Shown piece after piece: positions 27,817 through 29,362 of a stretch of 64,000 bases of DNA. Within the stretch, counting starts at the first letter, position 1. Every line of letters starts with the position of its first letter. The position numbers and the translations under genes are program-made. This DNA comes from a virus, in the IMG/VR virus record IMGVR_UViG_3300036770_008686, positions 71,790 through 135,789 of that record; one strand, written 5' to 3'. Under the pieces are notes generated by a model that worked only from the letters and a program-made list of their open reading frames with translations, was not told the origin of the DNA and searched no databases.

Positions 27817-28476
27817 CTAATTAGTTTTCTGACCTATGTAGTGTCCTTGGATAACAGGTAAGATTACTATGGTAGGCATGACTCCAGGCTCAGATTGATA
27901 AGATAAAAATTGCGTACCAAAACTTCTTAATAAAACAAGGTGTTTTGTACCTTGGGTAAAAGTAGGAGGAGGTTGACTATACCATTCGTCAACAATATCC
28001 CATATTACTGTACAGTTAGTAGCTATTTCTAGTTCTAGCAAAACATCAACGCTAACGCCACTATAAAAAAAGCTAAATTGTGCCACAGGAGCATTCTCTG
28101 TGGGCCAGCCCCCGCCTAGAACAAAGTTTACATTACCTTCTTCTAACTGTCCGTCATTATTAAAAGAAAAAGCTCCTATTCTGAGCTTTTGAATTTGTTT
28201 GTGTATACTATAACTAATACTAATGTTACCACCTAAATAACCAGGACTGAGGGGGGGCATTGGTTTATATATGACAGTAGGGGCAGACAAACCGTTATAT
28301 ATATCCAAGCTTCCGACTAGTATATTTTGTCCAGGATCTTCTTGAATTATTCCAAATGCTTGACCATTTCCATCAAATATGTTTCCTATGCCGATTGAAG
28401 AATTAGTAAAAACGGCAGAGGAAGCTGTTAAATTTCCTGTTGTGCTTAAGTCGTTAGAGCTATAATTAGCTGGCAT
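27817..28476 (-). CDS. hypothetical, probably virion-associated protein
   Basis: RBS AAAGGA; Ser/Thr/Gly-rich, beta-rich. Confidence 0.7.
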   Translation of the reverse strand: MPANYSSNDLSTTGNLTASSAVFTNSSIGIGNIFDGNGQAFGIIQEDPGQNILVGSLDIYNGLSAPTVIYKPMPPLSPGYLGGNISISYSIHKQIQKLRIGAFSFNNDGQLEEGNVNFVLGGGWPTENAPVAQFSFFYSGVSVDVLLELEIATNCTVIWDIVDEWYSQPPPTFTQGTKHLVLLRSFGTQFLSYQSEPGVMPTIVILPVIQGHYIGQKTN

Positions 28477-28491
28477 TTGTGTCCTTTTGTA

Positions 28492-28550
28492 TTATTTAGT
28501 GTTTAAATTATATTTTTTGATGACCTTGACCCATGCTTGTTGACAGCAAT
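28492..28550 (-). CDS. exon 2 of the intron-split hypothetical gene
   Basis: after splicing reads (T)AT TGC TGT CAA CAA GCA TGG...AAA TAA = YCCQQAWVKVIKKYNLNTK*. Confidence 0.75.
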
Positions 28551-28773
28551 CATTTTATCCTAAAGTTTCCTATGGGAACGGACTATATCTTCCACGATTT
28601 GTGGTAGGGGCGCTCTTGCCTGTTATTAAGACAAACCATTTTGTCTCAGGTAGTCTCTACACCTTCACTAGAATGGTCTAGTGCTTGGCTCGGTATTGCC
28701 ATCACCATTACGTGTTAAGGTTTCACCGAATTCACCCCTAATGGGCCTTTTATTTAATTGAAAATCACATATT
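28551..28773 (-). ncRNA. group I self-splicing intron, 223 nt, no homing endonuclease
   Basis: minus strand: P4 UUCGGU/ACCGAG, P6a CACUAG/CUAGUG, R GUAGAGACUA, S AAGAUAUAGUCC (28580-28591), P3 UAGGG/CCCUA, P8 CCAC/GUGG, GAAA-capped P9, terminal G at 28551, P1 with U.G at the 5' splice site. Confidence 0.9.
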
Positions 28774-29362
28774 AACCTCCCATTGAAGTTTTTACGCTAC
28801 TACACTCTTTACAAACAACTATTAAACTATTTTTAATTATTCCATACCTATATATTTCACACCAACTTTTTTTTCCCAGACATAGCCTGCCTTCGCAATC
28901 ACCAGGATCTCCGCAACCATTATCCTCTACTGCTCCGCTATACCTTGGACGAGACAAAGAAACTTCAACGAAAAAATAATCGTTACTCGGAGAGTCAAAC
29001 AAACTATTTAATAAGCTCTGACTAATATATTCAGGTGCAGCTTCTTGAGTTTCTATGGCGTGTATCATGCTACGAGCATTTAAGTCATCTAAATCCACAA
29101 CACTAGATATTGTTCCGTTTGGAATTTTTTTTCTTACTCCTTTATAAGTCTTAAAAAATACAAAATTTTTATTTAAATATTGATAGACATGTCTTCTTAA
29201 AGCTAACCGTCTATACCTCGTGCTTGACAAAATAGAACATCCATACTCTATAGCGGTAATTGGCGGGCGGGAATCGGCATTATCTGATACAATGCTACCT
29301 ATTTTTGCAAAATCCGGTGTGGATATGTCGAAATATGGTGGTTGGCCGTATTTTATGCCCAT
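28774..29362 (-). CDS. exon 1 of the intron-split hypothetical gene (215 aa when spliced)
   Basis: the apparent TAA stop at 28774-28772 straddles the predicted 5' splice site. Confidence 0.75.

What the first reader, a model, noticed from the sequence alone, without database searches (positions are those of the whole stretch)
28492..29362. Compact group I intron hidden in an uncharacterised phage gene; splicing restores the frame
Seen: the minus strand 28773-28551 carries the full group I core in order (P1 with a U.G pair, P3, P4, P6, R/S forming P7 GACUA/UAGUC, P7.1, P8, GAAA-capped P9, omega-G). The 5' site falls inside the apparent stop codon (GGA GGT T|AA). Joining it to the base after omega-G gives ...SMGG-YCCQQAWVKVIKKYNLNTK*, which ends 15 nt before the next gene's start codon. 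Known: phage group I introns mostly sit in DNA-metabolism or packaging genes (td, nrdB, nrdD, polA, terminase) and often carry a homing endonuclease. Inference: this 223-nt, endonuclease-free intron lies in a gene of no recognisable family, which would be an unusual host gene. ORF callers truncate the protein.
Basis: partly seen in the sequence, partly recalled or inferred. Interest (0 to 1): 0.85.

Follow-up and report, generated by a model that had tools for sequence, protein, structure and literature searches.

The report
Phage group I ribozyme, target downstream
A real self-splicing-type (group I) RNA enzyme sits just after a phage gene, not inside it, and its guide pairs with a target behind the enzyme rather than in front, so it probably cuts the message between two late genes instead of joining two halves of one gene.

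Summary
The minus strand 28747-28551 is a real group I ribozyme: Rfam RF00028 scores 56 bits, and its core helices covary in 28 relatives. It does not split the 196-aa ORF. In the related loci that ORF ends at its own stop codon, -1 to 24 nt before the ribozyme. The protein tails differ, and no upstream strand pairs consistently with the guide.

The guide word GGCCC (28747-28743) pairs instead with an invariant word after the terminal G, GGGUC (28532-28528). The G.U pair never varies, and neighbouring pairs show compensatory changes (UGCCC/GGGUA, CGCCC/GGGUG, GGUCC/GGAUC, UUGCC/GGUAA) across about 30 distinct phage copies.

This is the layout of a group I ribozyme permuted at the P1 loop. I predict guanosine attack at 28529|28528, which would cut the message between two late genes. 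A second step could release a 22-nt ring. None of this has been tested at the bench.

The scan reached the same reading on two other genomes (e1-5763576, e1-5763583). I found no paper describing natural examples; engineered 'self-targeting' circularisation ribozymes share the layout.

The parts
28775..29362 (-). Upstream ORF of 196 aa (stop codon 28774-28772). Conserved phage protein of unknown function. It is complete as called and is not split by the ribozyme.
   Evidence: 7 homologues ending at the same place; no family; AF2 pLDDT 70.8, no PDB match.
28748..28771 (-). AU-rich spacer between the stop codon and the guide word. Its length and sequence vary among relatives (-1 to 24 nt).
28743..28747 (-). 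Guide word GGCCC (internal guide sequence), 2 nt before P3. G28746 forms the invariant G.U.
28605..28740 (-). P3 (28740-28733 with 28612-28605), enclosing P4 (28729-28724/28695-28690), P5 (28720-28699), P6/P6a (28688-28662), the P7 5' strand (28655-28651) and P7.1/7.1a (28650-28619).
   Evidence: double-sided changes in P3, P4, P5, P6a and P7.1.
28558..28604 (-). P8 (28604-28592), J8/7, the P7 3' strand UAGUC (28585-28581) and P9 with its GAAA loop (28577-28558).
28551..28551 (-). Terminal G (omega-G homologue), at the end of the A/U-rich linker after P9.
   Evidence: Aligns with the annotated 3' end of the psbA intron of phage S-SRM01. A G occupies this place in every copy read.
28533..28550 (-). 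Variable insert hairpin (UGCU/AGCA core). Relatives replace it with unrelated hairpins of about 14 to 100 nt.
28528..28532 (-). 3' target word GGGUC, which pairs with the guide word. The predicted cleavage site is between U28529 and C28528. It is followed by the conserved AA.
   Evidence: 98.6% of cells paired, G.U 28/28, two pairs with compensatory changes; predicted independently by the MFE fold and by RNAalifold.
27817..28476 (-). Downstream ORF of 219 aa, whose ATG lies 52 nt after the predicted cleavage site. It would receive a new 5' end.

Best explanation
The element is a functional group I ribozyme in the spacer between two co-transcribed late genes. It is not an intron inside the 196-aa gene. 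Its topology is that of a group I intron opened at the P1 loop: guide word, then catalytic core, then terminal G, then a variable hairpin, then the target strand.

Shown:
- The fold, and its conservation by compensatory change.
- The upstream ORF ends before the element.
- The guide GGCCC pairs with GGGUC downstream, with an invariant G.U wobble, which is the hallmark of a group I 5' splice site.

Inferred:
- Free guanosine or GTP bound in P7 attacks the bond after U28529. This would cut the polycistronic RNA into an upstream mRNA that ends in the folded ribozyme and a downstream mRNA that starts with the added G followed by CAAGG...
- Because the terminal G is conserved, a second step may follow. 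U28529 would attack after G28551, releasing a 22-nt RNA ring (28550-28529) and leaving the upstream RNA ending at G28551.
- The likely role is message processing or insulation ahead of virion and tail-fibre genes.
For: Identity: RF00028 at 56 bits.

The core is under structural selection. In 28 relatives, 87.9% of cells are paired against 73.5% in shuffles, the covariation score is 0.388 against 0.137, and 0 of 500 shuffles reach the observed values. The core is 80-91% identical in DNA where the adjacent ORF is only 53-75% identical.

Downstream P1:
- Columns 4-8 pair with 380-384 in 98.6% of cells. G.U is 28/28. The flanking pair is GC 21, UA 4, CG 1; another pair is CG 26, UA 2.
- A fifth type, UUGCC/GGUAA, occurs in L018, L034, L040 and L087.
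- The same helix is predicted independently by the single-sequence MFE fold (z = -3.08) and by RNAalifold.
- In other stems of the same RNA, G.U alternates with G-C or A-U (P3 UG 24/UA 4; P4 GU 25/GC 3). The invariance of the P1 wobble is therefore specific to that pair.

Upstream: a complementary word occurs upstream in only a few copies and at no consistent position (L001, L016, L058, L080, L103).

Context: a long ORF stops -1 to 24 nt before the guide, and a long ORF starts 2-125 nt after the target. In 7 lineages the ATG of a virion structural gene (phrog_5838) lies 2-3 nt after the cleavage site.

Feasibility: engineered Tetrahymena ribozymes with this order (guide, ribozyme, insert, target site) self-circularise their insert (PMC11394858, PMC10415121).
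Against: No cleavage product, GTP addition or RNA ring has been observed; everything after 'the helix exists' is inference.
- The guide and target are invariant within the window's own clade, so covariation comes from a limited number of variant lineages.
- No P10-like pairing between the bases after G28551 and the bases 5' of the guide is conserved (read).
- In some copies the hairpin abuts both the terminal G and the target word with linkers of 0-1 nt. That may hinder docking of the terminal G for a second step.
- The context is not uniform. In the immuto-like phages an intrinsic terminator follows the target word within about 15 nt. 'Making a 5' end for the next gene' therefore cannot be the only role.
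- In the window and in L001 a weak upstream partner (GGUU, GGGUU) exists, so some conventional splicing is not excluded.
Confidence: 0.6

Rival explanations
1. A conventional cis-splicing intron (28773-28551) sits inside the stop codon of the 196-aa gene, and splicing adds 19 residues (YCCQQAWVKVIKKYNLNTK).
For: The join is open in frame in the window, and the equivalent join is open in L001. GGUU (window) and GGGUU (L001) can pair with the guide. G28551 is the homologue of a true terminal G.
Against: Window and L001 are close relatives (81% aa identity), so they are not independent, and their tails shift frame before the stop. The other related loci have no upstream partner for the guide, have different natural C-termini, or re-create a stop. 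The 'exon' begins with a covarying hairpin whose length varies by non-multiples of 3. The guide's conserved, covarying partner lies downstream.
Confidence: 0.07
2. A group I-shaped RNA kept for its compact fold only, for example as a 3' end protector of the upstream mRNA or as a relic. The outer helix would be a plain closing stem and no chemistry would occur.
For: The helix closes the whole structure like the terminal stem of many structured RNAs. No product has been observed. In the immuto-like phages the element lies at the end of a transcription unit, just before a terminator.
Against: The catalytic parts are the most conserved: P7 is invariant, as are J6/7, J8/7 and a G at the terminal-G position. 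The G.U in the outer helix never becomes G-C or A-U in 32 copies of five guide types, although its neighbours change and G.U pairs in other stems do alternate. A closing stem has no need of a fixed wobble.
Confidence: 0.17
3. A conventional intron whose 5' splice site lies far upstream, at GGGU|U (29376-29372) 14 nt before the ATG of the 196-aa ORF. That ORF would then be intron-encoded, in the P1 loop, and would be removed by splicing.
For: The window and L001 both carry GGGUU just upstream of the ORF start.
Against: That word is one arm of a 20-bp terminator-like hairpin. No such word stands before the upstream ORF at a matching position in the other family members; the few matches (L007, L075, L110, L153) lie 28-95 nt before the ATG. 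In L004 the ORF start overlaps the stop of the preceding gene. The ORF has no endonuclease motif.
Confidence: 0.04

Closest known systems
Small ORF-less group I introns of phages, e.g. the psbA intron of Synechococcus phage S-SRM01 (NC_070963) and the terminase intron of Vibrio phage 11895-B1
   Same: The same sequence family of catalytic core (blastn 72-75% identity over P3-P9): P7.1 extension, GAAA-capped P9 and an A/U-rich linker ending in the terminal G.
   Different: In those introns the guide pairs with the end of the upstream exon (GUGGCU| with GGUCAC in psbA) and P10 pairs with the downstream exon (GCUC/GAGC). The exons are two halves of one gene. Here there is no upstream partner, no split gene, and the partner lies after the terminal G.
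Engineered self-targeting-and-splicing (STS) circularisation ribozymes and permuted intron-exon (PIE) constructs (PMC11394858; PMC10415121)
   Same: The same order of parts as the STS design: guide, ribozyme, insert, target site ending in U. That design circularises the insert by the two normal transesterifications.
   Different: Those are laboratory constructs built on the Tetrahymena ribozyme, with designed P10 and antisense arms and long inserts. This one is natural, is phage-borne and has an 18-100 nt hairpin insert. Its products are unknown.
[quoted passage not shown]
   Same: A natural self-splicing ribozyme whose parts are re-ordered, so that it back-splices and makes RNA circles.
   Different: A different ribozyme class and chemistry (branching), and a different point of permutation.
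Lariat-capping (GIR1) ribozymes of twin-ribozyme introns (PMC2219692, PMC4167309)
   Same: Derived from group I; they cleave 3' of their own core and give the downstream mRNA a special 5' end; a 5' strand pairs with sequence after the terminal G.
   Different: GIR1 has a rearranged core without P1, makes a 3-nt lariat, and is known only in eukaryotic rDNA introns. This RNA keeps a canonical core that scores over the RF00028 cut-off, and it has a P1-type helix with a G.U. No other ribozyme family matched it.
c-di-GMP-II riboswitch/group I ribozyme of Clostridioides difficile (Lee et al. 2010, Chen et al. 2011; cited in PMC9481103 and PMC3649979)
   Same: A bacterial group I ribozyme in untranslated RNA that controls the expression of the next gene. 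From my own knowledge of those papers, which I could not open here, it also has an alternative GTP attack site close to the start codon.
   Different: That ribozyme has a normal upstream 5' splice site, is riboswitch-gated, and occurs in one species only.

Membership tests
Group I ribozyme fold (Rfam RF00028) | The covariance model score reaches the curated gathering score. | tested here: met
   56.0 bits against 50, E 1.3e-13; 56 bits in the genome search.
Group I ribozyme fold (Rfam RF00028) | Core helices P3-P9, including the P3/P7 pseudoknot, are kept by compensatory change. | tested here: met
   37 of 61 pairs show double-sided changes; 0 of 500 shuffles reach the observed values; P7 is invariant.
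Group I ribozyme fold (Rfam RF00028) | A terminal G (omega-G) follows P9. | tested here: met
   G28551 aligns with the 3' end of the S-SRM01 psbA intron. A G holds this place in all copies read.
Canonical self-splicing group I intron | P1 is formed by the guide and the end of the UPSTREAM exon, with U.G at the 5' splice site. | tested here: not met
   A complementary upstream word appears in only a few copies and at no consistent position (L001, L016, L058, L080, L103), plus a weak GGUU in the window. The stop codon overlaps the guide in L007. The U.G helix is formed with a downstream strand.
Canonical self-splicing group I intron | It interrupts a gene whose halves are joined in frame; intronless homologues are continuous across the site. 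| tested here: not met
Homologues end at the unspliced stop. Tails and spacers vary.
Canonical self-splicing group I intron | P10 forms between the guide's 5' part and the first bases after the terminal G. | tested here: not met
   The first bases after the G (A, A, U, A, A, C, A, U, U in nine copies) do not pair consistently with the guide's first base or the A-rich bases before it.
Permuted / self-targeting group I layout (as in engineered STS constructs) | The order is guide, core, terminal G, insert, then a target strand ending in U that pairs with the guide. | tested here: met
   about 30 distinct copies.
Permuted / self-targeting group I layout (as in engineered STS constructs) | Guanosine-dependent cleavage at the target U and circularisation of the insert. 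| not testable with these tools
   This needs in vitro transcription with GTP, or RNA reads from an infection.
Lariat-capping (GIR1) ribozyme | A rearranged core without P1, and a 3-nt lariat directly after the terminal G. | tested here: not met
   The core is canonical, a P1-type G.U helix is present, an 18-nt hairpin separates the terminal G from the paired word, and only RF00028 matched at E up to 10 among ribozyme families. The branching chemistry itself cannot be tested here.

The most novel reading that the evidence does not exclude
A natural, phage-borne group I ribozyme permuted at the P1 loop carries out both splicing steps 'backwards'. It would excise a tiny RNA ring (22 nt here, up to about 100 nt in relatives), leave the upstream mRNA ending in a folded ribozyme, and hand the downstream virion-gene mRNA a GTP-derived 5' end. 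In several lineages that would make the downstream mRNA a nearly leaderless message, with the ATG 2-3 nt after the cut.
Probability: 0.3. Interest if true: 0.9.

Novelty: new variant of a known kind. Interest (0 to 1): 0.8.

Why it matters
Group I ribozymes are known in nature almost only as introns that restore a split gene, with the eukaryotic lariat-capping ribozymes and one riboswitch-gated case as exceptions. A conserved phage family whose guide targets a site behind the catalytic core would be a natural counterpart of the circular-RNA tools built in the laboratory. It would also be an RNA-only way for phages to cut and re-end polycistronic late messages.

There is a practical point as well. 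Covariance-model hits in phage genomes are routinely annotated as introns and the neighbouring ORFs as 'split genes'. In Jug phages only 37 of 76 predicted group I introns had spliced reads (PMC12880540). Elements of this kind would be mis-annotated, and proteins would be wrongly extended, as in this finding.

Tried and rejected
- The whole-window Rfam gathering scan found nothing. This was a filter artefact, because the local and genome searches score 56 bits.
- Rfam's P1 (AACUUC/GGAGGUU, splice after 28787) was rejected. Its U.G becomes G.G in L001, and P1/P2 are deleted in the L006 alignment.
- The terminal G cannot lie inside or just before the GGGUC word. No G is conserved there except those paired to the guide.
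- A coding 'exon 2' in the frame GUC AAx was rejected. The frame is short, has no start, has unrelated tails, and shifts between the window and L001.
- The upstream ORF as an intron-encoded protein in the P1 loop was rejected. Apart from the window and L001, the few matches to the word before that ORF lie 28-95 nt from the start, at no consistent position.
- The function of the 196-aa protein stays unknown: no Pfam, PHROG or Foldseek-PDB match.
- The Klebsiella and E. coli jumbo-phage hits lie in tRNA gene clusters and were not followed up.
- Four library searches found no natural P1-permuted group I ribozyme. The two C. difficile papers could not be opened.

Full report

Yes, for the ribozyme. 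Reading the minus strand and scanning 28400-28900 against Rfam gave one strong match: RF00028 (group I intron), 56.0 bits against a gathering score of 50, E 1.3e-13, at 28795..28559. The search of the whole 135.8-kb virus record gave the same score. The first whole-window scan at gathering thresholds returned nothing; that was a speed-filter loss and is not evidence of absence.

In window coordinates:
- P3: 28740-28733 with 28612-28605
- P4: 28729-28724 with 28695-28690
- P5: 28720-28699
- P6/P6a: 28688-28662
- P7: GACUA 28655-28651 with UAGUC 28585-28581
- P7.1: 28650-28619
- P8: 28604-28592
- P9 with a GAAA loop: 28577-28558
- a G at 28551

blastn against named phages matches the core to known small phage introns. 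These include the psbA intron of Synechococcus phage S-SRM01, and its annotated 3' end (AUAAUUG|) aligns with AUAAAAUG| at 28551.

**2. Does it interrupt the 196-aa gene?**

The evidence says no.

- *Homologues end where the unspliced ORF ends.* The ORF (28775-29362) has seven homologues, all of which end within a few residues of the unspliced stop.
- *The same ribozyme follows each ORF's own stop.* I fetched their contigs and scanned public collections for the core, which gave ten distinct copies of the same ribozyme behind homologues of this ORF: window, L001, L002, L004/L005, L006, L007, L008, L009 and L010/L011. In every one the ORF has its own stop codon, -1 to 24 nt before an invariant GGCCC that lies 2 nt before P3. 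The spacer is AU-rich and unrelated between lineages.
- *The natural C-termini differ.* L008 ends ...FMQIFDA*, like the homologues P0003 and P0005, and L004 ends ...FMQ*. Both are followed by the same RNA. In L007 the stop UAG overlaps GGCCC, which leaves no room for a P1 hairpin.
- *There is no conserved upstream partner.* A strand able to pair with GGCCC and ending in U is found upstream in only a few copies, at varying positions (L001, L016, L058, L080, L103). The window has only a weak version, GGUU: two G-C pairs plus tandem wobbles.
- *Rfam's own P1 does not hold up.* That helix (AACUUC/GGAGGUU) lies inside the ORF, loses its U.G in L001, and is simply deleted from the alignment of L006.
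- *'Exon 2' starts with an RNA hairpin.* In the window its core is UGCU/AGCA. L004 has AGUC-GCAA-GACU, L010 has UUGGC-GAUA-GCCAA, and L006, L009 and others have long multi-hairpin inserts. The distance from the G to the next conserved word is 26, 26, 22 and 40 nt in four copies. A coding exon does not behave like this.
In L004, L006 and L008 the bases after the G are AA, so U+AA merely re-creates the stop.

**3. What the guide really pairs with**

Every copy has an invariant GGGUCAA after the variable hairpin; in the window, GGGUC is 28532-28528. GGGUC is complementary to GGCCC, with U opposite the second G. That is the geometry of a group I 5' splice site (GGGU|C).

To find variation I collected relatives with two conserved motifs from IMG/VR and parsed them. 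About 30 distinct copies share the layout: AU-rich lead, guide word, core, P9, linker ending in G, hairpin insert of roughly 14-100 nt, then the complementary word followed by AA. The guide and target change together:

| Guide word | Target word | Copies |
|---|---|---|
| GGCCC | GGGUC | most copies |
| UGCCC | GGGUA | L098, L103, L162, L164, L181 |
| CGCCC | GGGUG | L016 |
| GGUCC | GGAUC | Flavobacterium phage vB_FspM_immuto (L013) and L095 |
| UUGCC | GGUAA | L018, L034, L040, L087 |

On an alignment of 28 copies (A3) with my structure, the outer helix is paired in 98.6% of cells. G.U is 28/28, the pair next to the cut is GC 21, UA 4, CG 1 with 2 mismatches, and another pair is CG 26, UA 2.

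For the whole structure, 87.9% of cells are paired against 73.5% in shuffles, and the covariation score is 0.388 against 0.137 (0 of 500 shuffles; slid controls give 33-44% paired). The usual caveat applies: related sequences inflate shuffle tests.

RNAalifold predicts the same outer helix without being told. So does the single-sequence MFE fold of 28750-28520, where it extends to 7 bp (z = -3.08).

G.U pairs in P3 and P4 of the same alignment alternate with A-U or G-C, whereas the P1 wobble never does. A plain closing stem would not need that.

**4. Context**

- A long ORF stops just before the guide, and a long ORF begins 2-125 nt after the predicted cut.
- In seven lineages (L016, L075, L076, L082, L100, L110, L153) the ATG is 2-3 nt after GGGU| (GGGUCAAUGG...). 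Where the downstream protein was scanned (L075, L076) it is a large virion structural protein (phrog_5838). In L009 it carries an Mtd_N tail-fibre-type domain.
- In the window the next ATG (28476) is 52 nt after the cut, with its own AAAGGA.
- In the immuto-like phages the target word is followed within about 15 nt by an intrinsic terminator. In the L052/L062/L108 group it is followed by a promoter-like TTGACA...CATACT. The element therefore marks boundaries of late transcription or processing units, and it is not always followed by a gene start.
- Between the window and its relatives, the ribozyme is 80-91% identical in DNA where the neighbouring ORF is 53-75% identical (28-81% in protein).

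**5. Most likely mechanism**

Shown:
- a canonical, selected group I core;
- a conserved terminal G;
- a P1-type helix whose substrate strand comes from the 3' side;
- no split gene.

Inferred:
- Guanosine or GTP attacks after U28529 and cuts the message. The 3' RNA then starts with the added G followed by CAAGG...
- Because the terminal G is kept, U28529 may then attack after G28551. That would free a 22-nt ring (28550-28529) and an upstream mRNA that ends in the ribozyme.

This order of parts is the one used in engineered 'self-targeting and splicing' Tetrahymena constructs, which circularise their insert (PMC11394858, PMC10415121).

Points against the second step:
- No conserved P10 is found.
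- The linkers around the hairpin are very short in some copies.

I put about 0.6 on cleavage at the downstream site, and about half of that on ring formation.

**6. Rivals**

- *A fold-only RNA or relic with a closing stem (0.17).* This is hard to reconcile with the invariant wobble, P7, the joining regions and the terminal G.
- *A far-upstream 5' splice site (0.04).* This would be the GGGUU 14 nt before the ORF's ATG (29376-29372), making the ORF intron-encoded. That word is one arm of a 20-bp terminator-like hairpin. In the rest of the family there is no such word at a matching position; the few matches lie 28-95 nt before the ATG.

**7. Known or new?**

Four full-text searches for natural permuted or intergenic group I ribozymes found only engineered constructs, permuted group II introns and the eukaryotic lariat-capping ribozymes. 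The library lacks most subscription journals.

The scan's own notes show that two other follow-up agents reached the same reading on related elements in other phage genomes (e1-5763576, e1-5763583). I saw those notes only after my own analysis, so they agree with it but are not independent biological evidence.

I rate this a new variant of a known kind: the group I fold and chemistry with a permuted substrate topology and a role other than that of an intron.

**8. Verdict**

The sequence feature is real. The proposed splice and the protein extension are not supported. All of the chemistry remains to be shown at the bench.

Noticed in passing
outside the window: G000:C1:31063-31249 (-), = L220:1501-1687: A second RF00028 hit in the same phage genome (50.7 bits). 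It is a conventional group I intron in the anticodon loop of a tRNA gene inside a tRNA cluster. A Cys-rich HNH-like ORF (161 aa) lies on the other strand nearby (L220:854-1339).
   Followed up: partly
L002:1560-2700 (JGI Ga0502774_0010288): A rearranged locus. A 3' fragment of a window-like ORF plus a full ribozyme copy precedes the P0006 gene. After that gene's stop lies a copy of the window-type promoter hairpin and the first 13 codons (MGIKYGQPPYFDI), fused directly to the post-G hairpin and the GGGUCAAGG word, with no ribozyme core. It looks like the product of deletions or recombination between tandem paralogues.
   Followed up: partly
window 29414-29371 (-): A 20-bp terminator-like hairpin with TATATAAT in its loop lies directly upstream of the 196-aa ORF and is shared with L001. 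Its 3' arm contains GGGUU, which could also pair with the ribozyme's guide.
   Followed up: partly
L016, L075, L076, L082, L100, L110, L153: In these relatives the ATG of the downstream ORF (a large, about 900-1090 aa virion structural protein in most of them) lies only 2-3 nt after the predicted cleavage site, with no Shine-Dalgarno between them. Cleavage would leave a nearly leaderless mRNA.
   Followed up: partly
L013:1533-1667 (NC_055915 gp045, KNV73_gp045): The annotated 44-aa 'hypothetical protein' of Flavobacterium phage vB_FspM_immuto_2-6A lies wholly inside the ribozyme and is probably a spurious call. The element there is followed by an intrinsic terminator.
   Followed up: no
window 1-64000: The Rfam scan of the whole window at gathering thresholds missed a hit that scores 6 bits above the gathering score when a 500-nt stretch is scanned. 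Negative whole-window scans should not be read as absence.
   Followed up: yes
window 28775-29362 (-) and homologues P0001-P0007: The 196-aa protein family (invariant LRR..Y, KTYKGVR, FFVE, YRYG motifs) has no Pfam or PHROG match. A moderately confident AF2 model (pLDDT 70.8, mostly beta) has no Foldseek match in the PDB. It always lies in tail-fibre or virion modules, next to Laminin_G_3 proteins in L002 and L004.
   Followed up: partly
L076, L098, L110 inserts (between the terminal G and the target word): The long inserts of this clade share a UUUAUUGAAAG motif and several GC-rich hairpins. In the L018 group the short insert hairpin keeps a CUGU loop while its stem covaries. The insert may therefore have a function of its own.
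   Followed up: no
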